A stretch of DNA of 64,000 nt from an uncultured Bacilli bacterium (GCA_934162285.1 CAKPHY010000004.1:542-64541), one strand, 5' to 3'. Counted from the stretch's first letter, positions 3,856 through 28,094 are shown. The notes: generated from the letters alone by a model not told the origin. Numbers and translations: made by a program.

Positions 3856-5933
3856 ATTTAGATTTACTTAATGAATGGCAGCTTGAAGCTGTAAAAACAA
3901 CTAATGGGCCACTTTTGATCTTAGCAGGAGCTGGTTCTGGAAAAACACGTGTTTTAACTTATCGTGTTGCTTATTTAATTAATGAAGAAAAAATAGATCC
4001 TTATAATGTTTTAGCAATAACTTTCACCAATAAAGCAGCTAAAGAAATGAAAGATCGTATTATTGGAATTTTGGGATTTAAAGCTTTAGGTATTCAAATT
4101 TCCACTTTTCACTCTTTAGGTGTATTAATTATCAAAGAGAATTATGAAAAAGCTGGTTATAAAAATAATTTTACTATTTTAGACAGTGATGATTCTTTAA
4201 CTTTAATAAAAAAAATATTAAAAGAATTAAACTTAGATCCTAAAATGTATAATCCTAAAGCTATTAGAAATCAAATAAGTGGCACTAAAAACCAACTTTT
4301 AACATCTAAAGAATATGAAAAATATGCAATGACTGATTTTGAAAAAGTTGTTTTCAAAGTTTATCAAAAATATGAAAACAAGCTTTTAGTAAATAATTCA
4401 TTAGATTTTGATGATCTTTTAATGTTACCAATCAAGATTTTTAGAAAATATCCTGAAGTTTTAAAGCATTATCAAGAAAGATTTAAATATATTCTTATTG
4501 ATGAATATCAAGATACTAATGAAGCTCAATATACATTTGTAAAAATGTTAAGTGCTAAATATAAAAATATATGTGTAGTTGGTGATAATGATCAATCAAT
4601 ATATTCTTTTAGAGGAGCTAATTACCATAATATTTTAAATTTTGAAAAAGATTATCCTAATTGTAAAGTGATAATGTTAGAAAAAAATTATCGTTCAACT
4701 AAAACAATTTTAAATGCTGCTAACGATGTTATAAAAAATAATAAAGAAAGAAAAGATAAAAATCTTTGGACAGATAATGAACTTGGAAATAAAATAAAAT
4801 ATCATCGTGCATTAGATGAAAAAGATGAAGCTTTTTATGTTCTTCAAGAGGTAAAAAAATTAATAGATCAAGGAATAAAATTAAATGATATTGCTGTTTT
4901 ATATCGCACTAATGCTCAATCAAGAAATATTGAAGAAGCTCTTTTAAGAGAAAGTATTCCTTATCGTGTAATAGGTAGTTTTTATTTCTATAATAGAAAA
5001 GAAATAAAAGATTTAATTTCTTATTTAAAAGTTATTTATAATTCTAATGATGATATAAGTTTACTTAGAATAATAAATGTTCCTAAAAGAGGAATAGGTG
5101 ATAAAACTATTCAAAACTTGACAAAAAAAGCTAATTCATTAAATACTTCATTATTTGAAGCAATTGATTCAGGAAAAGAATTATTATTTAAACAAACTAT
5201 TAATGAATTAAAAGAAATAAGTGAAAAATCATCATTAACAGAATTAATAGATCAAATTTTAAATAAAAGTGGTATAAAAAATGAACTTGAAAATGAAAAA
5301 TCAATAGAAGCGGATATTCGTTTAGAAAACTTAGAAGAATTTAAAACAATAACTAGAAATTATGAAGAAAATAAAGGAATAGCTTCATTAGATGAATTTT
5401 TAAATGAAATAAGTTTAGTTTCGGATGTTGAAGAATATCGTAATCGTGATGATGTTATAACTTTAATGACTATTCATTCTGCAAAAGGACTAGAATTTAA
5501 CAATGTATTTTTAATTGGTATGGAAGAGGGTATATTCCCTCATCAAGCGGCTTTTTTTGATAACAACGAATTAGAAGAAGAAAGAAGACTATGCTATGTA
5601 GCAATAACAAGAGCCAAAGAAAAACTTTATATTGTTAATGCCAAAAGAAGAACTCTTTATGGTATTGATAGTGTTAATCCACCAAGTCGTTTTATAAGTG
5701 AAATAAATAAAGAACTTTTAGAACCTGATGAAGTTAAAGAAGAATTTAAATCTCCAATTAAAAGAACAATTGATACCTCAATTGAGTATAAAGCTGGTGA
5801 ACATGTTTTACATGACACTTGGGGTGAAGGGGTAATTATAAGTGTTGAAGATAAAATACTAACGGTTGCTTTTCCTCATCCTAATGGCATAAAAAAATTA
5901 ATGAAAGGTCATAGCAGTTTTCATTTAGTATAA
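3852..5933 (+). CDS. pcrA: ATP-dependent DNA helicase PcrA (UvrD/Rep superfamily 1)
   Basis: Motifs AGAGSGKT, DEYQDTN, VGDNDQSIYSFRGA, YRS, TIHSAKGLEF, YVAITRAKEKL. Start moved to the ATG at 3852 (MNLDLLNEWQ); the track ORF begins 15 nt earlier inside the previous gene. Confidence 0.92.
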   Translation: MNLDLLNEWQLEAVKTTNGPLLILAGAGSGKTRVLTYRVAYLINEEKIDPYNVLAITFTNKAAKEMKDRIIGILGFKALGIQISTFHSLGVLIIKENYEKAGYKNNFTILDSDDSLTLIKKILKELNLDPKMYNPKAIRNQISGTKNQLLTSKEYEKYAMTDFEKVVFKVYQKYENKLLVNNSLDFDDLLMLPIKIFRKYPEVLKHYQERFKYILIDEYQDTNEAQYTFVKMLSAKYKNICVVGDNDQSIYSFRGANYHNILNFEKDYPNCKVIMLEKNYRSTKTILNAANDVIKNNKERKDKNLWTDNELGNKIKYHRALDEKDEAFYVLQEVKKLIDQGIKLNDIAVLYRTNAQSRNIEEALLRESIPYRVIGSFYFYNRKEIKDLISYLKVIYNSNDDISLLRIINVPKRGIGDKTIQNLTKKANSLNTSLFEAIDSGKELLFKQTINELKEISEKSSLTELIDQILNKSGIKNELENEKSIEADIRLENLEEFKTITRNYEENKGIASLDEFLNEISLVSDVEEYRNRDDVITLMTIHSAKGLEFNNVFLIGMEEGIFPHQAAFFDNNELEEERRLCYVAITRAKEKLYIVNAKRRTLYGIDSVNPPSRFISEINKELLEPDEVKEEFKSPIKRTIDTSIEYKAGEHVLHDTWGEGVIISVEDKILTVAFPHPNGIKKLMKGHSSFHLV

Positions 5934-5956
5934 AAGCACAAAAAAAGTGCTTTTTT
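5932..5956. terminator. intrinsic terminator hairpin (bidirectional A-tract/T-tract) after pcrA
   Basis: AAAAGCAC-aaaaaaa-GTGCTTTT followed by T run. The same hairpin-containing flank recurs downstream of the paralogues near 7040 and 10396. Confidence 0.7.
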
Positions 5957-5962
5957 AATGCA

Positions 5963-6213
5963 CTAATATTTAAAATATCCATGAGTAGAATCAATTGTTT
6001 CGGTTCTATAGCCACAACACTCAAATCAAGTTTACTAGTTAAATTGTTAGCTTTAAAATCCCATTTAGCAATAGTACCATTGATAATTCCACTAATACTA
6101 GATTGATAAAAAACGTAGATAATAGAACCACCTATAACTAAAACTGAAAACGAAATAGATAAAATTAAAAATAATTTGAATTTGCACAAGAAAATATAAT
6201 AAAAAAAAGACAT
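5963..6213 (-). pseudogene. internally deleted remnant of a TasA/camelysin-like paralogue
   Basis: The 3' end (5963-6010) is near-identical to the 3' end of 10418..11116 (..ETIDSTHGYFKY*). It joins directly to an N-terminal piece (..ILSISFSVLVIGGSIIYVFYQSSISGIINGTIAKWDFKANNLTSKLDLS). The start codon and promoter are replaced by the junction ..aataatttgaat|ttgcacaagaaaat. Track ORF 5881..6213 is a chimeric reading of this. Confidence 0.75.
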
Positions 6214-6234
6214 AAAGTCTTTTAATAATTAGCA

Positions 6235-6957
6235 TTAATAAGCAAGTTGAATTGGCCCTTTTTCAGCATATACTTGACCGGCATAATAAAAGTAAAGATC
6301 TTGATCGTATCCATATTGTGTATTATCGCCTTTTATTAAGTTGTTACCAAGTTTATGATTTAAATTTAAAAGGAATAAAGGCCAACCTTTAGCTCCAGTA
6401 TATTGTCTGGCTATAATTTTGAATGTAGGAAATTCAATTTCTTCACCAGTATATTTATCACTACCATTATATGGCCAATTAAAGTAAATAGGAATAGTAA
6501 CAGTTTTACCTTTAGTAATTTTCCCATACCACCCAATGTAATATATACCGAGTCCATTGCTATTGGAAGGGGAATAAAATATATTAACGTCTGATACAGA
6601 ATCATTCCAACGTAAAAATCTGCTACCAGTTTTAGTTGCTGGAATATTCTCGGCAATTATTTCATAATAAACATCTAAATCGGAATTTTCGGCAGATAAA
6701 ACAATATTATAAGGACCATCCTCTTTTCCAGGGTATATTTCACCAAAATCAAGTTTAAAAGTATCAACTTGATTATTAGCCTTAAAATCCCATCTAGCAA
6801 TCGTACCACTAGCACTTCCTTTAATACTTGATTGATAAAAAGCATAGGTGGCAGTGCCTGCTATAATTAAAACAGAAAAAGAAATAGCTAAAATTAAAAA
6901 TAAATTAGAATTAAAAAAGTTCTTTTTTTCACAGTTATTATTTTTCACATGTTTCAT
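6235..6957 (-). CDS. secreted TasA/camelysin-like protein with SipW-type signal peptide, paralogue 1 (divergent C-terminal half)
   Basis: N-terminus KKNFFNSNLFLILAISFSVLIIAGTATYAFYQSS then SGTIARWDFKAN..LDFGEIYPGK.. resembles the TasA signal and mature start (..GGGTWAAFND..ASGTLDL...LKPGD). RBS AGGAG. Confidence 0.55.
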   Translation of the reverse strand: MKHVKNNNCEKKNFFNSNLFLILAISFSVLIIAGTATYAFYQSSIKGSASGTIARWDFKANNQVDTFKLDFGEIYPGKEDGPYNIVLSAENSDLDVYYEIIAENIPATKTGSRFLRWNDSVSDVNIFYSPSNSNGLGIYYIGWYGKITKGKTVTIPIYFNWPYNGSDKYTGEEIEFPTFKIIARQYTGAKGWPLFLLNLNHKLGNNLIKGDNTQYGYDQDLYFYYAGQVYAEKGPIQLAY

Positions 6958-6983
6958 TAATGATTACATCTCCTATAATAACC

Positions 6984-7014
6984 ATTATATATATATATAT
7001 ATATCAAAAGTCAA
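6984..7014 (-). promoter_or_regulatory. sigma-A-type promoter with (AT)9 tract filling the -35/-10 spacer (candidate phase-variable promoter)
   Basis: Gene strand reads TTGACT(7014-7009)-TTTG(AT)n-TATAAT(6989-6984). The perfect (AT)9 is at 6987-7004 and the spacer is 19 bp. AGGAG and ATG follow about 30 nt downstream. Confidence 0.6.
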
Positions 7015-7056
7015 ATAAAATTAGAGTTTTGCACAAGAAAATGTAATAAAAAAGCA

Positions 7057-7752
7057 CTAATATTTAAAATATCCATGAGTAGAATCAATTGTTTCTACTC
7101 TGTAGCCACAACCTGTTCCGATCATCCTATAACCATAAGCATCACCTGTACATGTAGTTGCGTAAGTACCGAAAGTTAAACCTAACATATTAATAGGTAA
7201 ACTCCCGGAATAACCAGTATATTGTCTACCAATAATTTTAATTGAAGATGAAGGAGTTCCAGCATAATAATTTTCTGAAGAAGCCCCATAAGGCCAATTA
7301 TAATAAAGTGTAACCGTTTCTTTAGAACCAGCTTTAATAACACCATATTTACCAACACGCCATTCATTTGGACTCATATTTCCTCTTGATCCTATTCCTC
7401 TATCATAATTAGAATCCCAATAAAGTTTAGAATTAATAGTACCACTTGGAAATATTAATTCATAATAAACATCAAGATCAGAATTTTCAGCAGATAAAAC
7501 TAAATCAACACTTCCATTTTTTCCAGGATATAATTCACCAAAGTCAAGGCTAATATTATCAGTTAAATTATTAGCTTTAAAATCCCATCTAGCAATCGTA
7601 CCACTAATAGTTCCATTAATACTAGATTGATAAAAAGCATAGGTAATAGAACCACCTATAACTAAAACAGAAAACGAAATAGCTAAAATTAGAAATAAAT
7701 TAGAATTAAAAAAATTCTTTTTTTCACAGTTATTATTTTTCACATGATTCAT
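7057..7752 (-). CDS. secreted TasA/camelysin-like protein, paralogue 2
   Basis: Same N-terminal signal (..ILAISFSVLVIGGSITYAFYQSS). Near-identical over its full length to 10418..11116. Confidence 0.55.
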   Translation of the reverse strand: MNHVKNNNCEKKNFFNSNLFLILAISFSVLVIGGSITYAFYQSSINGTISGTIARWDFKANNLTDNISLDFGELYPGKNGSVDLVLSAENSDLDVYYELIFPSGTINSKLYWDSNYDRGIGSRGNMSPNEWRVGKYGVIKAGSKETVTLYYNWPYGASSENYYAGTPSSSIKIIGRQYTGYSGSLPINMLGLTFGTYATTCTGDAYGYRMIGTGCGYRVETIDSTHGYFKY

Positions 7753-7778
7753 CAGTAATCACATCCCCTATAATAACC

Positions 7779-7809
7779 ATTATATATATATATATATATC
7801 AAAAGTCAA
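7779..7809 (-). promoter_or_regulatory. second copy of the promoter with (AT)9 in the spacer
   Basis: TTGACT(7809-7804), (AT)9 at 7782-7799, TATAAT(7784-7779), 19-bp spacer. The flank duplicates the 6958-7040 flank. Confidence 0.6.
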
Positions 7810-7888
7810 ATAAAATTAGAGTTTTGCACAAGAAAAAGTGCTTAAAAAGCACTTCTTAGTAAATAAATATTTTAAGGAATAAATTATG

Positions 7889-10300
7889 CTAATTAATTGT
7901 TATGTTTATAGTTTTATATACACCATCACGATAATATTTCATTGTTGAACTACCTTTTTTAGCAGCAATAATTTTACCATCACTATCTACATTAAAAATA
8001 TCTTTATTTGAGAAAATTGTATTTTCACCATATTTTTTAATTGTAATAGTTTCTTGACTTAAACTATTATATTTCAAAACAAATTTAATATTATCTACAT
8101 TGTCACCTACATTGTAAGTATAGTTTCCTTGACTAGAAGTTATAGAAGTTACAAAGTCACCTAAATATAAATAATCCCACCAATTATTAGAATAACCATC
8201 ACTTGTATATCCAGTAACATGTGGCATTAATCCAAACCACCAGCGATGATGAAGTCTTGCCTCAGAATTTGTTCCTGAAATATTTGCATTCATATAAACA
8301 CTAGGGGAGAAAATATCATTGCTTGGATTACTAGTTAAATAAGGATAATTTAGCCATTCTTTCCATTTACTTTTAGCAGTAGTTGTATAGTTTGCCCAAT
8401 CATAATCTTTAGTACTATTTGGTGAGAAGTGAACATTTCCAGCTCCAGCCAATCCGGTATTTTTACTAATATTAGTATGATCAGTTAATGTGAATTTTTC
8501 CCATAAACTTAAATTACTGTAATTTGTGCTATTAATATTAACATAGTTGGCATTATAGTAATCATAAACACTGTTTTTAAATACATTATTCATTATAAAT
8601 TCACTTGCATGTCCATAACATTCAAAATTAGTATCTGGTCGTGAAGTAGAAACATTAATCATTTTAAAGTTATCGCATGGTTTCTTTGTTGCATCTCCAT
8701 TCATCCAATATGGATTTTTTCCTACTAAAAGAGATTCAAATGATCTAGTTGGGTCGACATTTACTAGCCAAACTTCATTAAATTCATTATTATTTCTTCT
8801 TTGAACAAGATTAAATTTATTTAATAAATATTCATAATTAAGAGAATAATCACCAAATTCTTTTACTCTTTCATCATCCCAAAAGCCATACCAACCATTT
8901 TTCATTATATCTAACCATGTATCTTCATCAAGTTTATAATCTTTAGTTCCGTTTAATAGAGTAGCTTTATTTTTGTGAGTACTAAATTCATTTAATTTTT
9001 CTGTTTTTACAATTTGAACATCAATTATTCCATGAGAACTACTTTCTATATCATTAACTAATTCATTTATTACTTGAGACTTATTTTGACCCAAACATAC
9101 ACTGGCTGTAATACCTGCACATGATCTACCTTCAATTGTGCCTTTAGATAATACTGGATCCATTTCAATAACTAAGACTTTCAATACCTTTTTAGTAGTA
9201 ACATTAGAAACTTTTGGAAATTCATAGTTAGACATACTAACAACACTAGGTGTTGGTATTGGATCATTAATATATTCAATATTACAACTTACATTAGAAG
9301 TATTTCCAACTTTATCACTAAAAGAAAGAGTTACACTTTGATGTTTTCCATCTAATGTAATATTTTTTCCACTCCATTTATACCAATTACCATTAAAGCT
9401 ATATTTATCAATATCACTATCATTTGTTGTTATATTTAAAGTAGTTTTATTTCCTTCAGCTTTGCCACTACAACTAGTTATTACTGGTGCTTCTTTATCA
9501 ATATTAGAAATAGAAATCTGAGCTGTAGTCATATTTCCATCATTATCATACATTTTAAAAATATAGACACCATTACTTTTAGCAACATAAGTAGAAGTTT
9601 TTTGATTTGATCTTATACCATCAGGTAATATCACATGAGAAAAATTATCAATATAACTTTTAAATGTAATAGTAACATCTGAAGAAGTTAAAGATGTCTT
9701 ATTTGCTGTTAATGTATAATTATTACCAGTTACACTGATAGTTCTCGTCAATATAACTTTTTTACCATTATAATTTAAGGTATAAGTAATTTTATAAGTT
9801 CCAACCTTAGAAGTATTTATATTGCCATTAACAATAACTTTACTTTTTAAATTTTCACCAGTTTTATTATTTTTACAAACAAACCCCGGATCATTAAAAT
9901 TTCCGTTCAATTTAATTTGGTAATTTTCATTACCCAATAAATAAAATCTAATATCATTTGAATTTTTATTAACTATTTTAATTGTACGTACTCGAACAAC
10001 ATCTCCAAATTTATAAGTTATTGTATAAGTACCTTCTTTAGAAGGATCTAAATTAGAATCAATAATTACCTTACTAGTCAAATCATTATTTTTATCATCA
10101 TAAGCTTTATAACCAGGTTCAATAAAACTCGAATTTACATCTAATTCTATTGTTTCATCTCCTAATAAAGTAATTGTAATTTCTTTTTTATCATTCTTCA
10201 TAAAATTATTTCCAGTAAATATCAATAAAGAAACAATTATAATGAGAAGACCTCCTATTATATAATATATAAAATAATTATTTTCCTTTTTCTCTCCCAT
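7889..10300 (-). CDS. large membrane-anchored surface protein: two DUF5011-type Ig-like repeats, a shared Ig-like module, and an unassigned C-terminal domain of about 450 aa
   Basis: N-terminal TM helix. Repeats of the form ITLLGDETIELDVNSSFIEPGYKAYDDKNNDLTSKV...GTYTITY. Module ILPDG...NGVYIFKMYDNDGN...NIDKEAPVITSC is shared with 42951..48701. The C-terminal domain has conserved-looking GNVHFSPN and HHRWWFG motifs that I cannot name. Confidence 0.6.
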   Translation of the reverse strand: MGEKKENNYFIYYIIGGLLIIIVSLLIFTGNNFMKNDKKEITITLLGDETIELDVNSSFIEPGYKAYDDKNNDLTSKVIIDSNLDPSKEGTYTITYKFGDVVRVRTIKIVNKNSNDIRFYLLGNENYQIKLNGNFNDPGFVCKNNKTGENLKSKVIVNGNINTSKVGTYKITYTLNYNGKKVILTRTISVTGNNYTLTANKTSLTSSDVTITFKSYIDNFSHVILPDGIRSNQKTSTYVAKSNGVYIFKMYDNDGNMTTAQISISNIDKEAPVITSCSGKAEGNKTTLNITTNDSDIDKYSFNGNWYKWSGKNITLDGKHQSVTLSFSDKVGNTSNVSCNIEYINDPIPTPSVVSMSNYEFPKVSNVTTKKVLKVLVIEMDPVLSKGTIEGRSCAGITASVCLGQNKSQVINELVNDIESSSHGIIDVQIVKTEKLNEFSTHKNKATLLNGTKDYKLDEDTWLDIMKNGWYGFWDDERVKEFGDYSLNYEYLLNKFNLVQRRNNNEFNEVWLVNVDPTRSFESLLVGKNPYWMNGDATKKPCDNFKMINVSTSRPDTNFECYGHASEFIMNNVFKNSVYDYYNANYVNINSTNYSNLSLWEKFTLTDHTNISKNTGLAGAGNVHFSPNSTKDYDWANYTTTAKSKWKEWLNYPYLTSNPSNDIFSPSVYMNANISGTNSEARLHHRWWFGLMPHVTGYTSDGYSNNWWDYLYLGDFVTSITSSQGNYTYNVGDNVDNIKFVLKYNSLSQETITIKKYGENTIFSNKDIFNVDSDGKIIAAKKGSSTMKYYRDGVYKTINITIN

Positions 10301-10417
10301 TTTTTCCCTCTCTATACTATCATCTTCCTTATTATAGCATTTTTAAAATCTAGTAATAGAACAATTTAGCTTTTCGTTAATTCAAGTATACACAAAAAAA
10401 GTGCTTTTTTAAATGCA

Positions 10418-11116
10418 CTAATATTTAAAATATCCATGAGTAGAATCAATTGTTTCAGTTCTATAACCACAACCAGTACCAATAGTACGATATTTATAAG
10501 CATCAGCAGTACATGTAGTTGCGTAAGTACCAAAAGTTAATCCTAACATATTAATAGGTAAACTCCCTGAATAACCAGTATATTGTTTACCAATAATTTT
10601 AATTGAAGATGAAGGAGTACCTGCAGAATAATTTTCTGAAGAAGTTCCATACGGCCAATTATAGTAAAGTGTAACTGTTTCTTTAGAACCAGCTTTAATA
10701 ACACCATATTTACCAACACGCCATTCATTTGGACTCATATTTCCCCTTGATCCTACTCCTCTATCATAATTAGAATCCCAATAAAGTTTAGAATTAATAG
10801 TACCACTTGGAAATATTAACTCATAATAAACATCTAAATCAGAATTTTCAGCAGACAAAACTAGATCCACACTTCCAGTTTTTCCAGGATATAATTCACC
10901 GAAGTCAAGCTTAATATTATCAGTTAAATTATTAGCTTTAAAATCCCATCTAGCAATCGTACCATTGATAATTCCATTAATACTAGATTGATAAAAAGCA
11001 TAGGTGACAGTACCAGCTATAATTAAAACTGAAAACGAAATAGTCAAAATTAAAAATAAATTAGAATTCAAAAAATTTTTCTTTTCACAGTTATTATTTT
11101 TCACATGATTCATCAA
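10418..11116 (-). CDS. secreted TasA/camelysin-like protein, paralogue 3
   Basis: 232 aa with only scattered substitutions relative to 7057..7752. Its upstream tract is interrupted (TTGACATATGTATAATATATAATC), not a perfect repeat. Confidence 0.55.
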   Translation of the reverse strand: MMNHVKNNNCEKKNFLNSNLFLILTISFSVLIIAGTVTYAFYQSSINGIINGTIARWDFKANNLTDNIKLDFGELYPGKTGSVDLVLSAENSDLDVYYELIFPSGTINSKLYWDSNYDRGVGSRGNMSPNEWRVGKYGVIKAGSKETVTLYYNWPYGTSSENYSAGTPSSSIKIIGKQYTGYSGSLPINMLGLTFGTYATTCTADAYKYRTIGTGCGYRTETIDSTHGYFKY

Positions 11117-11204
11117 TCATCACATCTCCTATAATAATGATTATATATTATACATATGTCAAAAAGACATTTTTTAACATTCGGTAAGTGAAATTAAATA
11201 TGTT

Positions 11205-11700
11205 AATTTATGTTTATAATTTCTTATATATGATTGCGATAATATTTCATTGTTGAACTACCTTGTTTAGCAGCAATAATTTTGTCATCAATACATACAT
11301 TAAAAATACCTTTGTTTGAAAAAATTGTATTTTAATCATATTTTTTAAATCATTTTTTGTAAAATTATTTCCTGTAAATATCAATATTGAAACAATTATA
11401 GTTGAATACTAACTATTGTATAATATACAAAATAATTTTATCTCTCTATTTTATTTTTAACTTTTTCTCCTATTCTATACTATCAACCATTTCTTATAAA
11501 TCTAACAACAGATCAATTTACCGTTTTGTTAATTTGACATACAAAAAGTGTTTTTTAAAAAATAATAAAAAAGACATAATGTCTTCTAAAATCAAGTTGA
11601 ATTGCCGTAAAGTATATTATCTTTTATATTAATACTACATTTCTATAATAATCAAAAGTCAAATAAAATTAGAGTTTTTCACATCGAAGTTAAAATATTA
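11205..11700 (-). pseudogene. collapsed ghost of a second array copy (3' and 5' ends of an 803-aa-type gene, last codons of a paralogue-1-type gene, promoter remnant)
   Basis: 11221-11340 matches 7905-8040 (3' end of the 803-aa gene). 11345-11560 matches 10195-10400 (its 5' end and upstream region). 11575-11625 matches 6205-6260. 11643-11690 matches the promoter flank but has no AT tract. Track ORF 11402..11632 (+) lies inside this debris. Confidence 0.7.
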
Positions 11701-11732
11701 TGGTATAATAAAAATGTTTGGAGGGCTTTAGT

Positions 11733-12563
11733 ATGATAAAAGGGAAACCATTCGTGAAATGGGCTGGTGGCAAAAGACAAATAATAAAGGAATTAACTAA
11801 ATTAGCTCCTTTAGAATATTCAACATATTATGAACCATTTGTAGGTGGTGGGGCACTTTTATTTGAACTTTCACCTAAAAAAGCTGTAATAAATGATTAT
11901 AATGAAGAATTGATGAATGTTTATAATTGTATTAAAGATGAAAACAAATTTGAAAAAATGGTTCATGAATTAAATCATTATGAAGCAAGTCATAATAAAG
12001 AATTTTATTTAGAATTAAGAAATAAAGATCGTGATCAAAAGAAATTCATGAAAATTCCTGATTATAAGAGAGCAGCAAGAACGATATATTTAAACAAAGC
12101 TTGTTTTAATGGCTTATATCGTGTTAACAGTAAAAATGAATTTAATGTACCTTTTGGTAAAAAAGAAAAAGTTAATACATATGATGGTCAAAATTTAGGA
12201 ATAATTCATTCTTTCTTGAACTTTAATGATATTAAAATAATGAATGTTGATTTTGAAGAAGCCGTAAAAGATGCCAAAAAAGGCGATTTCATTTACTTTG
12301 ATCCCCCATATGATTCAGACACTCATACCTTCAATAGTTATACGGAAGAAGGCTTTGGTAAAAAAGATCACATTCGTTTAGCTAATACCTTTAAAGAATT
12401 AGATAAAAAAGGTTGTTATGTAATGCTTTCAAATCATAACACTGAATTAGTAAATGAATTATATAAAGATTTTAATATTCATATAATTGAAGCTAAAAGA
12501 AATATTAATGCAAATGGTAAAAAACGAGGAAAAGTAGAAGAAGTAATTATCACTAATTACTAG
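11733..12563 (+). CDS. dam: Dam-family DNA adenine methyltransferase (MethyltransfD12), no adjacent endonuclease
   Basis: N-terminal FVKWAGGKRQI, FGGGA-like EPFVGGGAL, catalytic DPPY (FIYFDPPYDS). TGgTATAAT promoter and GGAGGG RBS precede the ATG at 11733; the track start at 11718 is a TTG. Confidence 0.85.
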   Translation: MIKGKPFVKWAGGKRQIIKELTKLAPLEYSTYYEPFVGGGALLFELSPKKAVINDYNEELMNVYNCIKDENKFEKMVHELNHYEASHNKEFYLELRNKDRDQKKFMKIPDYKRAARTIYLNKACFNGLYRVNSKNEFNVPFGKKEKVNTYDGQNLGIIHSFLNFNDIKIMNVDFEEAVKDAKKGDFIYFDPPYDSDTHTFNSYTEEGFGKKDHIRLANTFKELDKKGCYVMLSNHNTELVNELYKDFNIHIIEAKRNINANGKKRGKVEEVIITNY

Positions 12564-21073: not shown

Positions 21074-21751
21074 TTAGTTTTTCTTAGTGATTCTGTTTTG
21101 TTTTCTGATATTATCATTTAAGATATAATCAAAATAATCTTTTATATCTAAATAAAAATTCTTTTTGTTTTCTTTAACCGCAAAACAATAATGACTATTT
21201 TTTTCAATAATCTTTTTGGCAATATCTTTTTGACAACCCATTGCATCGATAGTAATAACACAATTTTCTATATTGATTAAATCTAATAAATCGGGTGTTT
21301 CAGTAATTTCATTAGATTTATCATCAACCTTTACTTGACCTATAGATATACATAAATATGATAGAAAAGCTGAAACAATATAAGGAATATTACCACCATT
21401 AATTTTATCAGTAGCACTTTTAATAGCTTTTCCGTCGATAGGCACAATTTTATATTTATTTTTTAATTGATTATTCTTTTCTTCAACGATTGATTTTACC
21501 CAAGAAACAAAAATGTTCATAAATTCTTTAGGGTAAATTAATAAGTAAATTTTTAATAATGTAGGAGGAGTACCATTTTCTAAATTCAATTCATTTACAA
21601 AGCAATCTTCATTAAGATTTAAAAAATATACTATATTTTTTGCATCGTAATATCCAGCAAGAATACCATAAATAGACATTACAATACAATCCGTTAATTC
21701 GTGCTTTAGACCTCTTATATCTCTAGTATCAGTTAATTTATAAAAAAACAT
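21074..21751 (-). mobile_element. 3'-truncated ISAs1-family (H-repeat-associated) transposase gene
   Basis: The N-terminal D.R.......H.L.D....S......G pattern (TDTRDIRGLKHELTDCIVMSIYGILAGY) and central IDAMGCQKDIAKKI match ISAs1-type DDE transposases. At 225 aa the last third of the protein is missing. Confidence 0.7.
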
Positions 21752-25971: not shown

Positions 25972-27735
25972 ATGAATAATGAATATAAGTTTATACACTT
26001 ACTTTATGTCCCAACAATGAATTGCAATATGCAATGTAAATATTGTTATTTAAAAGAAAATACAATAGATTTAAAACATGATGATAAATACTTAAAAACT
26101 TTGGAATATGCAGTAAAAAAATTTAGAGATGCAGGAGTTGTTCCTTTCAACATTTCACTTCATGGTGGCGAAGTAACAACTCTTTCCAAAGAAGATTTTA
26201 GAGATATAATTGAGTTCATTTCTAATTACTACAAAAATAATAAAAAAATAATTGAAGATAATGGTTTTAGACTTGGAGAGCCACATATCAAAACAAACCT
26301 CTTAAATCTTGAAAAGCATATTGATGCAATTAGAGATTTTAATGTATCTATTAGTGGAAGTTTAGATTTACCATTTTCATTACATGAGGAATATAGAGTA
26401 ACAAAAGGAAATCAAAAAACATTAGATAAAATACTTAATAATATTAAATTATTAGAAAATATACCTAATAAAAAGAAAGTGTCAGCTACTATTTTTAAAG
26501 AACACTATGATAAACTTGATGAAATAGTAAAAGATATTAAATATTTAGAAAAAAATACTTGTCTTGATATGAACGATTTTAACTTTATGATTGGTTTTGT
26601 ATCAAAAGACGATAAAGTATTACATGCAATGAGTGAAGAAGAACAAGTTAATTTATATAATAGAATGAAAAAAGAGTTCTTAAATACTTCACTAGATTAT
26701 GGAGTAAGAAATACTTGGTTTGCAGAGTTTAATCCTACTTATTGCACTAATTGTGATAATTGTGGGGAAAAGTTTTTTCTACTTGAAAGAGATGGCGATA
26801 TATATTCTTGTGTAAGAGGTCAAAAAAATCCTGATTTCTATTATGGTAACATTTACAGAGATACAGTAGAAAATATTATGAATAATGCTAGGATAAAAAT
26901 ATTTGAAAATCATAATAGAGTTGGATTTAATGAGGAATGTCTTAATTGTAAATATTTATATTTATGCAAAACAGGTTGTCCTTATGTAAAAAATAATTAC
27001 AAAACAAATAAATCATATACTTGCAAATTACAGCAAGAAATATATAAGGATAATGCAGAATTATATAAAGAAGATGCTTATAACGAAGAATCAATATATA
27101 TGTATTTGAGTAAAATGCATCCAAGTATTGCTTCAAAATACTATCCTCCTGAAAAGCAAATGACAACAGATGGTATTCCTAAATTAAATGAGATAATATC
27201 AAATGACGAAAAACTTAAAAATATTTATAGTTCTGATATTTTCATATTAAAAGTTGATGATGAAGAATATAAGCTGCAATCACAAATATTAAAAAATAAT
27301 AGAGATATTATATACTTGACTGAAAAAAGTAATATAAAATTGTATATTAAAAAAGGTGTATTAGAGGATTGCGATTATCCTGCAAATAATTCATTATATA
27401 TGATGTTATTAAGTGGTAATTTAGTTCAATATGGTGATGAAAACAGGATTAAACAAGAACATATAATGACACATCAAATATATACTAATACTATTTTAAA
27501 GAAAAAATCTGATAAGAAAAATTATTATTGTATTGATATTACCAATATATTATCGTTGTATTATAATGATATTTCTAGTGATAATCCAAATAACTTGTTT
27601 TTTACAACATCGGAATTAAGAGATTATCATTATTTAAAACAAAAAAATAATGCTTATTACCATATACAAGCAATAAATCTACCATTTCAAAATATAGAAT
27701 TTTTCTATATAGACTGTAAGGAGGATATAAAATGA
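25972..27735 (+). CDS. radical SAM enzyme with SPASM domain and an unassigned C-terminal extension of about 220 aa
   Basis: CX3CX2C (NCNMQCKYC), GGE motif (HGGEVT). SPASM signatures: G-x4-C (GDIYSC) and C-x2-C-x5-C-x3-C (CLNCKYLYLCKTGC). Starts 9 nt after the preceding gene. Confidence 0.85.
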   Translation: MNNEYKFIHLLYVPTMNCNMQCKYCYLKENTIDLKHDDKYLKTLEYAVKKFRDAGVVPFNISLHGGEVTTLSKEDFRDIIEFISNYYKNNKKIIEDNGFRLGEPHIKTNLLNLEKHIDAIRDFNVSISGSLDLPFSLHEEYRVTKGNQKTLDKILNNIKLLENIPNKKKVSATIFKEHYDKLDEIVKDIKYLEKNTCLDMNDFNFMIGFVSKDDKVLHAMSEEEQVNLYNRMKKEFLNTSLDYGVRNTWFAEFNPTYCTNCDNCGEKFFLLERDGDIYSCVRGQKNPDFYYGNIYRDTVENIMNNARIKIFENHNRVGFNEECLNCKYLYLCKTGCPYVKNNYKTNKSYTCKLQQEIYKDNAELYKEDAYNEESIYMYLSKMHPSIASKYYPPEKQMTTDGIPKLNEIISNDEKLKNIYSSDIFILKVDDEEYKLQSQILKNNRDIIYLTEKSNIKLYIKKGVLEDCDYPANNSLYMMLLSGNLVQYGDENRIKQEHIMTHQIYTNTILKKKSDKKNYYCIDITNILSLYYNDISSDNPNNLFFTTSELRDYHYLKQKNNAYYHIQAINLPFQNIEFFYIDCKEDIK

Positions 27736-28094
27736 TTGATAAAAAACCGAAAACATATAATGAAATTGTTAGAATGAAAAAATGTTATACATTAACACAA
27801 TACTTTTCTAATATAACTGAAAATATGTTTAATGAGATTTATAATTTTTTAGGGGAAAATCCTGATAATACTATTGTAGCAAACCAAAGAGTATTATCAT
27901 TTGTTAATAGTGCTACACAAGTCGTTAAGTCTTTACCATTAGTGCCTAAAAATTCATCTTTTGATAGTATAAAGATTGGTAAAAGTGGTGTTTCAGTAGT
28001 TCCTCATTATAGTCCAAGTTCTAGTTCTGATCGGGGGGGATCTTCTAGCAACAATAATAACAATAATAATAACAATAACAATAATAATAGATAG
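27732..28094 (+). CDS. 120-aa protein ending ..SSSSDRGG-SSS-N13-R (possible rSAM partner or substrate)
   Basis: The ATG overlaps the rSAM stop (ATGA). No TM segment and no Cys after residue 18. The tail is encoded by imperfect AAY repeats. Confidence 0.5.
   Translation: MIDKKPKTYNEIVRMKKCYTLTQYFSNITENMFNEIYNFLGENPDNTIVANQRVLSFVNSATQVVKSLPLVPKNSSFDSIKIGKSGVSVVPHYSPSSSSDRGGSSSNNNNNNNNNNNNNR
28033..28039 (+). repeat. G7 homopolymer inside the coding sequence
   Basis: gatcGGGGGGGatc encodes R-G-G. It is the longest G/C homopolymer I noticed in this AT-rich window. Confidence 0.9.
28050..28088 (+). repeat. 13 consecutive AAY (Asn) codons
   Basis: AAC AAT AAT AAC AAT AAT AAT AAC AAT AAC AAT AAT AAT, read directly. 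Confidence 0.95.

What the first reader, a model, noticed from the sequence alone, without database searches (positions are those of the whole stretch)
6984..7809. (AT)9 dinucleotide tracts fill the -35/-10 spacers of two paralogue promoters: candidate slipped-strand phase variation
On the gene strand both promoters read TTGACT-TTTG-(AT)9-AATGG. The last TAT of the tract plus AAT forms TATAAT, so the repeat is the spacer. The perfect repeats lie at 6987-7004 and 7782-7799 and the spacers are 19 bp. AGGAG and ATG follow about 30 nt downstream. Each TA unit gained or lost changes the spacer by 2 bp, and loss of one unit gives the canonical 17 bp. As sequenced, both promoters would therefore be in a weak state, one slippage step from optimal. 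This is the architecture of the Haemophilus influenzae hifA/hifB fimbrial switch, where TA repeats lie between -35 and -10. The third paralogue keeps the TTGAC element, but its tract is interrupted (TTGACATATGTATAATATATAATC). The ghost promoter near 11657 has no tract at all (TTGACTTTTGATTATTATAG). The perfect tract is thus specific to two copies of a surface-protein family, as expected for a contingency locus.
Basis: partly seen in the sequence, partly recalled or inferred. Interest (0 to 1): 0.7.

Follow-up and report, generated by a model that had tools for sequence, protein, structure and literature searches.

The report
Slippery TA-repeat promoter switches, gut bacterium
Two neighbouring genes for unknown secreted or membrane proteins in an uncultured gut bacterium each have a run of TA repeats between the two halves of their promoter, and the run's length differs between otherwise identical strains, which marks a mutation-driven on/off switch of a kind already known from mycoplasmas and Haemophilus.

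Summary
Perfect (AT)9 tracts lie at 6987-7004 and 7782-7799, each exactly filling the gap between TTGACT and TATAAT (19-nt spacer) upstream of paralogous genes on the minus strand. They are the only AT tracts longer than 4 units in 64 kb.

On 18 metagenome contigs of the same species, 30 copies of this promoter cassette carry 4-15 units. Five assemblies have no substitutions over 2.3-3.9 kb; four of them differ from the window only in tract length. Eight units (the canonical 17-nt spacer) occur in 4 of 30 promoters.

Homologues at 43-51% identity in other uncultured Bacilli also carry variable (AT)n or poly(A)+(AT)n tracts ahead of TATAAT, three of four right after a TTGA(C) -35 element. Tract-free homologues have fixed 17-18-nt spacers or an extended -10.

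Hypermutability is therefore shown. The transcriptional on/off effect is inferred from geometry.

The closest known system is the TA-repeat promoter spacer of Mycoplasma mycoides Vmm lipoprotein genes, then Haemophilus hifA/hifB. This is a new member of a known kind, in a non-pathogen lineage and an unannotated protein family.

Corrections: the tract is not restricted to two copies, and gene A's ribosome-binding site is AGGGG.

The parts
7804..7809 (-). -35 hexamer TTGACT of the gene A promoter
   Evidence: Sequence. The same hexamer sits in every copy of the cassette.
7782..7799 (-). (AT)9 tract filling the gene A promoter spacer (19 nt as sequenced)
   Evidence: At this gene the tract is 8-15 units in other assemblies.
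7779..7784 (-). -10 hexamer TATAAT of gene A (TAT from the tract plus AAT)
   Evidence: Sequence. There is no TG at -15/-14, so it is not an extended -10.
7765..7769 (-). Ribosome-binding site AGGGG of gene A, 12 nt before the ATG at 7750-7752
   Evidence: Sequence.
7057..7752 (-). Gene A: 231 aa, N-terminal hydrophobic helix plus beta-sandwich, unannotated family
   Evidence: No Pfam or NCBIfam hit. 101 homologues. AF2 model with pLDDT 77.8.
7009..7014 (-). -35 hexamer TTGACT of the gene B promoter
   Evidence: Sequence.
6987..7004 (-). (AT)9 tract filling the gene B promoter spacer (19 nt as sequenced)
   Evidence: At this gene the tract is 8-12 units in other assemblies.
6984..6989 (-). -10 hexamer TATAAT of gene B
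   Evidence: Sequence.
6970..6974 (-). Ribosome-binding site AGGAG of gene B, 12 nt before the ATG at 6955-6957
   Evidence: Sequence.
6235..6957 (-). Gene B: 240-aa paralogue, 53% identical to A. The promoter and first ~85 codons are 87% identical in DNA; the C-terminal half is divergent.
10418..11116 (-). Gene C: third paralogue, 92% identical to A
11134..11162 (-). Gene C promoter region with an interrupted, non-slippery tract. It reads TTGACA-11-TATAAT and TTGACA-17-CATTAT.
   Evidence: In L059 and L061 the same gene has the perfect-tract cassette with n = 11 and n = 7.
11643..11662 (-). 'Ghost' cassette next to the Dam-like methyltransferase gene. It reads TTGACTTTTGAT-TATTATAG, with the tract collapsed.
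   Evidence: The same cassette carries (AT)10 in L004, (AT)4 in L057 and (AT)8 in L032.
5881..6213 (-). Truncated family-gene remnant lacking the promoter cassette
   Evidence: The sequence runs from 'cttgtgcaaa' straight into the signal-helix coding part.
7832..7853 (-). Terminator-like hairpin plus U-run ending the upstream 803-aa gene, which insulates the gene A promoter
   Evidence: -11 kcal/mol, z = -3.0. The consensus scan did not call it.
7889..10300 (-). Neighbouring 803-aa gene with bacterial Ig-like surface domains. It has its own TGcTATAAT promoter and is not tract-controlled.

Best explanation
Each family gene has its own sigma-70-type promoter whose -35 (TTGACT) and -10 (TATAAT) hexamers are separated by TTTG plus a perfect (AT)n tract. 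The spacer is therefore 2n+1 nt.

Replication slippage adds or removes TA units, so the spacer moves in 2-nt steps. Only n = 8 gives the canonical 17 nt (ON). The sequenced n = 9 gives 19 nt (weak or OFF), and longer tracts give 21-31 nt (OFF).

The promoters of genes A and B, and in other strains those of gene C and a fourth cassette, switch independently. This would give a population a mixture of expression states of a small family of secreted or membrane-anchored beta-sandwich proteins with a conserved N-terminus and a variable C-terminal half.

Shown: the position of the tract, its rarity, its hypermutability relative to point substitution, and its recurrence in diverged homologues.

Inferred: that these hexamers are the working promoter, that spacer length sets transcription, and that the proteins are surface-exposed.
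For: 1. Anatomy. The tract is bounded exactly by TTGACT-TTTG and AAT. There is no TG extended -10, so a -35 at the correct distance should be needed.

2. Rarity. There are no other AT tracts above 4 units in the window. Only one tract of 6 or more units occurs in 1.03 Mb of related genomes, and that one is again TTGACC-(AT)12-AAT upstream of a signal-peptide gene.

3. Hypermutability.
- The 30 cassettes on 18 contigs tally as n = 4:1, 7:1, 8:4, 9:9, 10:4, 11:5, 12:3, 13:1, 14:1, 15:1.
- L001, L002, L007, L010 and L011 have 0 substitutions against the window over 2.3-3.9 kb. In L002, L007, L010 and L011 the only differences are tract indels. A/B states are 9/9, 15/12, 9/10 and 11/11, and B = 10 in L011.
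- L002 and L007 carry the same BioSample identifier.

4. The 17-nt allele exists: L004-A, L005-A, L006-B and L032.

5. Conservation of the design across species.
- P0047 group: TTGACA-A7-TGT-(AT)5-AAT gives 17 nt in 6 of 7 samples and 19 nt in one.
- P0021 group: TTGACA-(AT)n-AAT, with n = 9 versus 14 in two samples.
- P0087 group: n = 10, 10, 11 and 16.
- P0100 group: TTGA(AT)13AAT.

6. Tract-free relatives have TTGAAA-17-TATACT, TTGACA-18-TATAAT or TGcTATAAT at the same distance from the ribosome-binding site. This supports the hexamer assignment.

7. Precedent. TA indels in the promoter spacer switch vmm of Mycoplasma mycoides ON and OFF (PMC10502178, PMC2268961). (TA)9-11 controls hifA/hifB (PMC2651432).
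Against: - There are no transcription-start or expression data.
- Promoter-like consensus matches are no commoner than chance in this 26% GC DNA: 56 found against 48 +/- 7 in shuffles. The promoter call therefore rests on comparative conservation.
- The modal allele is 19 nt, not 17. Many alleles lie far from 17 nt, up to 31. That fits 'mostly OFF' but also fits neutral drift.
- The P0087 group has a variable tract but no recognisable -35.
- No terminator separates gene A from the gene B promoter (-1.3 kcal/mol). B could also be read through from A.
- Assemblies give one consensus length per sample, so reversible switching within a clone has not been observed.
Confidence: 0.72

Rival explanations
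1. Neutral microsatellite. The TA tract is an unstable but functionless repeat that happens to sit in the AT-rich intergenic cassette and is carried along when the cassette is duplicated or converted. Expression does not depend on its length.
For: - The length distribution is broad (4-15 units) and peaks at 9, not at the 'optimal' 8.
- All copies within the species descend from one cassette.
- Promoter-like motifs are not above chance in this DNA.
Against: - Long AT tracts are otherwise almost absent from these genomes.
- In three lineages with different flanks (the window species, the P0047 group and the P0021 group) the tract sits exactly between a TTGAC[AT] and a TATAAT whose first three bases it supplies. 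The P0100 group reads TTGA(AT)13AAT.
- Tract-free homologues keep 17-18-nt spacing.
- A change of 2-14 nt between -35 and -10 without an extended -10 is expected to affect sigma-70-type initiation (established promoter biology).
Confidence: 0.13
2. The tract regulates, but not through -35/-10 spacing. For example, (AT)n could act as a supercoiling-sensitive, easily melted or cruciform-forming element. Alternatively its length could set the phase between an upstream regulator site (the conserved CTTGTGCAAAACTCTAATTTTAT) and the core promoter.
For: - The P0087 group has a long variable tract without a clear -35.
- A 36-nt block upstream of the tract is identical between the A and B cassettes.
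- Most natural alleles are far from a 17-nt spacer.
Against: - The upstream block is not conserved in the other species, which still carry the tract between -35 and -10.
- No regulator gene is evident next to the locus.
- The simple spacing model already accounts for the geometry and has direct precedent.
Confidence: 0.1
3. Artefact. The length differences come from sequencing or assembly errors at a dinucleotide repeat, not from the organisms.
For: - AT dinucleotide runs are prone to polymerase stutter.
- One contig end shows an odd (TAA)n run where the tract should be (L005 1-80).
Against: - Differences reach 7 units and are seen with both MEGAHIT k141 and SPAdes-type assemblies.
- They lie inside contigs of 6-150 kb.
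- The two tracts on one contig vary independently.
- Tracts of 30 nt or less are spanned by single reads and by a 141-mer.
Confidence: 0.03

Closest known systems
Vmm and Vmm-type lipoprotein genes of the Mycoplasma mycoides cluster (TA repeats in the promoter spacer)
   Same: - Dinucleotide TA insertions and deletions in a repeat between -35 and -10 switch transcription ON and OFF (PMC10502178, PMC2628566, PMC2268961).
- Several genes per genome carry poly-TA tracts of 10-16 units immediately upstream (PMC3053259).
- The hosts are low-GC relatives: the Bacilli/Mollicutes neighbourhood.
   Different: - The proteins here have no lipobox (sequence) and no known family. Homology to Vmm itself was not tested.
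- The host is an uncultured gut Bacilli/Erysipelotrichaceae-like organism, not a mycoplasma pathogen.
- Switching has not been shown experimentally.
Haemophilus influenzae hifA/hifB fimbrial switch
   Same: A (TA)9-11 tract between the -35 and -10 elements is proposed to change promoter spacing and so fimbrial expression (PMC2651432, citing van Ham 1993).
   Different: - In hif the tract lies in overlapping promoters of two divergently transcribed genes.
- Here each promoter is unidirectional and its upstream neighbour is co-directional.
- The organism is Gram-negative and the proteins are unrelated.
Mycoplasma hyorhinis vlp family (poly-A tract in each promoter)
   Same: - A multigene family of variable surface proteins, each gene with its own promoter tract that mutates independently, giving combinatorial expression (PMC10502178, PMC2268961).
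- The P0047-group homologues here even combine poly(A)7-10 with (AT)n in the spacer.
   Different: - The repeat is a homopolymer rather than a dinucleotide.
- Vlps are lipoproteins with repetitive C-termini, whereas these are beta-sandwich proteins without internal repeats.
Neisseria meningitidis porA promoter tract
   Same: A simple-sequence tract within the promoter modulates expression of a surface protein (PMC3639595).
   Different: - A poly-G homopolymer that gives graded levels.
- A proteobacterial outer-membrane protein.

Membership tests
SSR promoter-spacer phase-variation switch (contingency locus, Vmm/hif type) | A perfect simple-sequence repeat, long enough to slip, lies between the -35 and -10 hexamers | tested here: met
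   TTGACT-TTTG-(AT)9-AAT at both promoters.
SSR promoter-spacer phase-variation switch (contingency locus, Vmm/hif type) | Tract length varies among closely related strains while the flanks stay constant | tested here: met
   4-15 units in 30 cassettes. Five assemblies have 0 substitutions over 2.3-3.9 kb; four of them differ from the window only in the tracts.
SSR promoter-spacer phase-variation switch (contingency locus, Vmm/hif type) | Some natural alleles give the optimal 17 +/- 1 nt spacing | tested here: met
   n = 8 (17 nt) in L004-A, L005-A, L006-B and L032. 17 nt in 6 of 7 samples of the P0047 group.
SSR promoter-spacer phase-variation switch (contingency locus, Vmm/hif type) | Transcription level depends on tract length | not testable with these tools
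   No transcriptome or reporter data. The effect is inferred from spacer geometry only.
SSR promoter-spacer phase-variation switch (contingency locus, Vmm/hif type) | High-frequency, reversible switching within a clonal population | not testable with these tools
   Only consensus assemblies are available. L002 and L007 share BioSample SAMEA4766259 but differ (15/12 versus 9/10). That is suggestive and not proof.
SSR promoter-spacer phase-variation switch (contingency locus, Vmm/hif type) | The controlled gene encodes a surface-exposed or host-interacting product | tested here: inconclusive
   The protein has an N-terminal hydrophobic helix (residues 8-45 in the model) plus a beta-sandwich. It lies next to an Ig-like surface protein gene. 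There is no family or structural match.
hifA/hifB-type divergent switch | The tract is shared by two divergently transcribed, overlapping promoters | tested here: not met
   All the genes at 6235-11116 are on the minus strand, and each cassette faces one gene.
Mycoplasma variable lipoproteins (Vmm, Vlp) | Lipoprotein signal peptide with a lipobox cysteine | tested here: not met
   No Cys follows the hydrophobic segment. The only N-terminal Cys, at residue 9, precedes it.
TasA/camelysin SipW-dependent fibre proteins (considered because of the GG-S/T-x-T-Y-A-F-Y motif) | Match to Peptidase_M73/TasA models or to the SipW-cognate signal-peptide model, or a TasA-like fold | tested here: not met
   No Pfam or NCBIfam hit at E <= 1. 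No PDB sequence hit. Best Foldseek result has E = 5e-3 and TM < 0.3, to generic CUB or C-CPE sandwiches.

The most novel reading that the evidence does not exclude
The tracts may be one visible part of a lineage-wide contingency system. In this reading, an unannotated family of beta-sandwich envelope proteins, spread over several species of uncultured, small-genome gut Bacilli (Erysipelotrichaceae- or 'Tenericutes'-like MAGs), is switched combinatorially by TA and poly(A) tracts in promoter spacers and reshuffled by recombination between conserved promoter/N-terminal cassettes. That would make it a commensal counterpart, and possibly an evolutionary relative, of the mycoplasma Vmm/Vlp systems. 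It would show that multi-locus SSR phase variation is not restricted to pathogens.
Probability: 0.3. Interest if true: 0.65.

Novelty: new member of a known kind. Interest (0 to 1): 0.5.

Why it matters
SSR-driven phase variation is documented almost entirely in pathogens. A recent review names its apparent restriction to pathogens as an open question, possibly caused by database bias (PMC11868660).

Here an uncultured, non-pathogen gut lineage shows the same device on a protein family with no annotation. Tract-length polymorphism is already visible in public metagenome assemblies.

This gives three things:
- a concrete locus where phase state can be read directly from metagenomes and correlated with host, phage or immune variables;
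- a pointer to a likely host- or phage-exposed envelope protein in organisms that cannot yet be cultured;
- a warning for MAG annotation and strain tracking, because these loci vary faster than SNPs and break assemblies.

Tried and rejected
1. Pfam, NCBIfam, PDB-sequence and Foldseek-PDB searches for the family gave nothing usable. I dropped the TasA/SipW idea that the N-terminal motif had suggested.

2. A genome-contig scan with the family alignment found no member among GTDB species representatives. A second scan with PcrA placed the organism only roughly. The nearest hit is 'uncultured Erysipelotrichaceae bacterium RUG11241' at 81% aa, followed by 'Tenericutes' and 'Bacilli' MAGs at 55-70%.

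3. The gapped DNA pattern scan of metagenome contigs returned 45 loci, but only 3 were the real cassette (L015, L018, L032). The rest were chance matches.

4. The sigma-70 consensus scan cannot see 19-nt spacers, and its hit count is not above chance in this AT-rich DNA. It is not used as evidence.

5. My first reading was that the methyltransferase-proximal cassette drives the 803-aa gene in L004. That was wrong. The cassette is followed by a deleted family-gene remnant and a hairpin, and the 803-aa gene has its own TGcTATAAT.

6. I looked for 'one gene ON per locus'. Three contigs have exactly one 8-unit promoter and none has two, but the numbers are too small to mean anything.

7. Equal A and B lengths on one contig (9/9, 11/11) might hint at gene conversion. 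The contigs concerned are near-identical strains, so no conclusion is drawn.

Full report
**Observation**

The window is 24-32% GC throughout. On the + strand, perfect (AT)9 runs lie at 6987-7004 and 7782-7799.

The genes here are on the minus strand. Gene A is 7057-7752 (231 aa), gene B is 6235-6957 (240 aa) and gene C is 10418-11116 (232 aa). A truncated remnant lies at 5881-6213, and an 803-aa gene with bacterial Ig-like domains lies at 7889-10300.

Read on the gene strand, both tracts sit in TTGACT-TTTG-(AT)9-AATGG. The -35 hexamers are at 7009-7014 and 7804-7809. The -10 hexamers (TATAAT, formed by the last TAT of the tract plus AAT) are at 6984-6989 and 7779-7784. The spacer is 19 nt, or 2n+1 in general. 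A ribosome-binding site (AGGAG for B, AGGGG for A) and the ATG follow, with the ATG 26 nt after the -10.

**Is it more than chance?**

- These are the only AT tracts above 4 units in the window.
- The 12-mer ATATATATATAT is expected 0.11 times per shuffle, and no shuffle of 100 reached the observed count.
- In 1.03 Mb of DNA from the nearest available genomes (28% GC) there are 160 (AT)4, 16 (AT)5, none of 6-11 units and a single (AT)12.
- The two tracts are copies of one cassette, not independent events. The sequence is identical from 36 nt upstream of the tract to 17 nt downstream.

**Organism and context**

The flanking genes are ordinary chromosomal ones: PcrA/UvrD helicase, a D12-class adenine methyltransferase, CutA, a Na/Ca exchanger, alanine racemase and ABC transporter components.

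The family has no member among GTDB species representatives. PcrA is 81% identical to an 'uncultured Erysipelotrichaceae bacterium' MAG and 55-70% identical to MAGs labelled Tenericutes or Bacilli. One homologue is named as coming from an Erysipelotrichaceae MAG.

The organism is therefore an uncultured low-GC member of the Bacilli. Sample names such as Hadza, and labels that look like human gut study codes, suggest gut metagenomes. That origin is my inference.

**Test of hypermutability**

Looking up contigs that encode exactly the window's proteins returned independent metagenome assemblies. In them the same cassette carries 8, 9, 10, 11, 12 or 15 units with unchanged flanks.

Adding contigs of a 90%-identical allele and three hits of a DNA pattern scan gives 30 cassettes on 18 contigs:

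| Units (n) | 4 | 7 | 8 | 9 | 10 | 11 | 12 | 13 | 14 | 15 |
|---|---|---|---|---|---|---|---|---|---|---|
| Cassettes | 1 | 1 | 4 | 9 | 4 | 5 | 3 | 1 | 1 | 1 |

Comparison with a 3901-nt reference (window 4500-8400) gave these results:

| Locus | Substitutions | Aligned length | Tract state (A/B) |
|---|---|---|---|
| L001 | 0 | 3901 nt | 9/9 |
| L002 | 0 | 3901 nt | 15/12 |
| L007 | 0 | 3338 nt | 9/10 |
| L010 | 0 | 2304 nt | 11/11 |
| L011 | 0 | 2541 nt | B = 10 |
| L009 | 2 | 3901 nt | 9/9 |
| L003 | 11 | 3901 nt | 9/11 |
| L004 | 15 | 3901 nt | 8/9 |

L001 is identical to the window. In L002, L007, L010 and L011 the only differences are indels at the two tracts. Tract length therefore changes much faster than base substitution, and the A and B tracts change independently.

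L002 and L007 carry the same BioSample identifier (S002 and S001), which hints at heterogeneity within one sample. I cannot tell what the two sub-labels mean.

An artefact is unlikely. The differences reach seven units, are seen with different assemblers, and lie inside long contigs.

**Is the tract really in a promoter?**

No transcript data exist. A consensus scan is uninformative in such AT-rich DNA: it found 56 hits against 48 +/- 7 in shuffles, and it allows only 16-18-nt spacers. The argument is therefore comparative.

Homologues at 43-51% protein identity from other species were traced to their contigs, and their upstream regions were read.

| Lineage | Upstream architecture | Spacer or tract state |
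|---|---|---|
| P0047 group | TTGACA-A7-TGT-(AT)5-AAT | 17 nt in 6 of 7 samples, 19 nt in one. Its paralogues carry poly(A)8-10 plus (AT)3-4, giving 11-12 nt |
| P0021 group | TTGACA-(AT)n-AAT | n = 4 fixed at one gene; n = 9 versus 14 at its neighbour in two samples |
| P0087 group | (AT)n before TATAAT, no clear -35 | n = 10, 10, 11, 16 |
| P0100 group | TTGA(AT)13AAT | one sample |
| P0092 group (two genes) | TTGAAA-17-TATACT | no tract |
| P0058 group | TTGACA-18-TATAAT | interrupted tract |
| P0093 group | TGcTATAAT extended -10 | no tract |

All of these elements lie at the same distance from the ribosome-binding site. The hexamers that flank the tract are thus the conserved promoter elements of the family. 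Where there is no slippery tract the spacing is canonical. Where there is one, the length varies between samples.

Genes A and B have no TG extended -10, so a correctly spaced -35 should matter (established sigma-70 promoter biology).

**Mechanism proposed**

Slipped-strand mispairing changes the tract by whole TA units. The spacer then runs 15, 17, 19, 21 ... nt.

- Eight units give 17 nt (ON).
- The sequenced nine units give 19 nt (weak or OFF).
- Longer tracts give OFF.

The 8-unit allele exists in nature at gene A (L004, L005), at gene B (L006) and at the methyltransferase-proximal cassette (L032).

Each gene has its own cassette, so states combine. A strong hairpin with a U-run ends the 803-aa gene just upstream of the A promoter (-11 kcal/mol, z = -3.0). 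Nothing comparable separates A from the B promoter (-1.3 kcal/mol), so B may also be read through from A.

The shown steps are position, rarity, hypermutability and cross-species recurrence. The inferred steps are the transcription start, the length-to-activity relation and reversibility within a clone.

**The proteins**

No Pfam, NCBIfam or PDB-sequence match was found.

An AlphaFold model built on 31 homologues (pLDDT 77.8) shows an N-terminal helix at residues 8-45, which includes the hydrophobic stretch LFLILAISFSVLVIGGSITYAF, followed by a beta-sandwich. Foldseek against the PDB found only generic sandwiches (best E = 5e-3, TM < 0.3).

The N-terminal 60-90 residues are nearly invariant across the family, and the C-terminal half is variable. 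Within the window, the promoter plus the first ~400 nt of A and B are 87% identical, although the proteins are only 53% identical overall.

A secreted or membrane-anchored product is likely. 'Surface protein' remains an inference. There is no lipobox, and the TasA/SipW resemblance I noticed in the N-terminal motif is not supported by any model.

- The perfect tract is not confined to two copies. Gene C carries it in L059 (n = 11) and L061 (n = 7). The 'ghost' cassette carries it in L004 (n = 10), L057 (n = 4) and L032 (n = 8).
- The window's gene C has an interrupted, stabilised version in which TTGACA lies 17 nt from CATTAT.
- In the window's ghost cassette the tract is missing.
- The locus is also structurally plastic. 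Paralogue number and order differ between contigs.

**Comparison with known systems**

The design matches SSR promoter-spacer switches.

- The nearest precedent is vmm of Mycoplasma mycoides. There, dinucleotide indels in a repeat in the promoter spacer turn transcription ON and OFF (PMC10502178, PMC2628566, PMC2268961), and poly-TA tracts of 10-16 units precede several lipoprotein genes per genome (PMC3053259).
- The hifA/hifB switch of Haemophilus influenzae uses (TA)9-11 but in divergent overlapping promoters (PMC2651432). That feature is not met here.
- The vlp family of Mycoplasma hyorhinis uses poly(A) in each promoter of a multigene family (PMC10502178). The P0047-group promoters, which combine poly(A) with (AT)n, recall it.

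Membership in the general class is met for position, polymorphism and the existence of optimal-spacing alleles. It is untestable here for length-dependent transcription and clonal reversibility.

**Verdict**

It is a new member of a known kind. The new elements are the host lineage (an uncultured gut commensal rather than a pathogen), the unannotated protein family, and the conservation of the device across several species.

[quoted passage not shown] This locus bears on that question and can be followed directly in metagenomes.

Noticed in passing
L004, L005, L006, L057-L061 compared with window 5881-11700: The locus is structurally plastic between strains. The third paralogue is absent or reduced to a remnant in L004 and L057. 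An extra 231-aa copy replaces the 803-aa gene in L005. The 803-aa gene is missing in L006. Additional 248/249-aa paralogues occur in L059-L061. The conserved promoter/N-terminal cassettes probably act as recombination substrates.
   Followed up: partly
window 11230-11520 (minus strand): Between the ghost cassette and gene C lie decayed pieces that resemble the start and the C-terminal end (…KIIAAKQGSSTMKYY…) of the 803-aa gene. This suggests an old duplication of the whole 803-aa-gene-plus-paralogue unit. It was seen by eye only.
   Followed up: partly
window 5881-6213 (minus strand): A truncated family gene whose promoter cassette has been deleted. The conserved upstream 'cttgtgcaaa' runs straight into the signal-helix coding region, and the reading frame then drifts into the 3' end of another copy.
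   Followed up: partly
L145 14006-14040: A different uncultured Bacilli MAG (PcrA 53% identical) carries TTGACC-(AT)12-AAT about 100 nt upstream of a gene that starts MNDNKKQTIILTLIAIITLS… This was the only AT tract of 6 or more units in 1.03 Mb of related DNA, and it has the same promoter-spacer layout.
   Followed up: partly
L062-L069 (P0047 group), upstream of the family genes: Two kinds of simple repeat share one promoter spacer there: poly(A)7-10 followed by (AT)3-6. Both lengths differ between paralogues and samples.
   Followed up: partly
L005 1-81: At the contig start, where the TA tract should be, the sequence reads (TAA)n directly joined to TGGTTATTATAGG. This is probably an assembly artefact at a contig end, but it could be a real alternative repeat.
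   Followed up: no
window 7030-7066 (minus strand): No terminator-like hairpin lies between gene A and the gene B promoter (-1.3 kcal/mol). The 803-aa gene, by contrast, ends in a strong hairpin plus U-run. Genes A and B could therefore be co-transcribed when A is ON.
   Followed up: partly
window 28033-28039: A G7 run, unusual in a 26% GC genome, lies inside a 120-aa ORF (27732-28094) that ends in a poly-Asn tail. The ORF sits directly downstream of a radical-SAM/SPASM gene (25972-27735). It could be a peptide-modification cassette or another slippery site.
   Followed up: partly
window 11718-12563: A D12-class (Dam-like) adenine methyltransferase gene, with no obvious restriction partner, borders the variable locus in every strain examined.
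   Followed up: no
window 21074-21751: A DDE-type transposase ORF (DDE_Tnp_1 plus an associated domain), which indicates an insertion sequence in the window.
   Followed up: no
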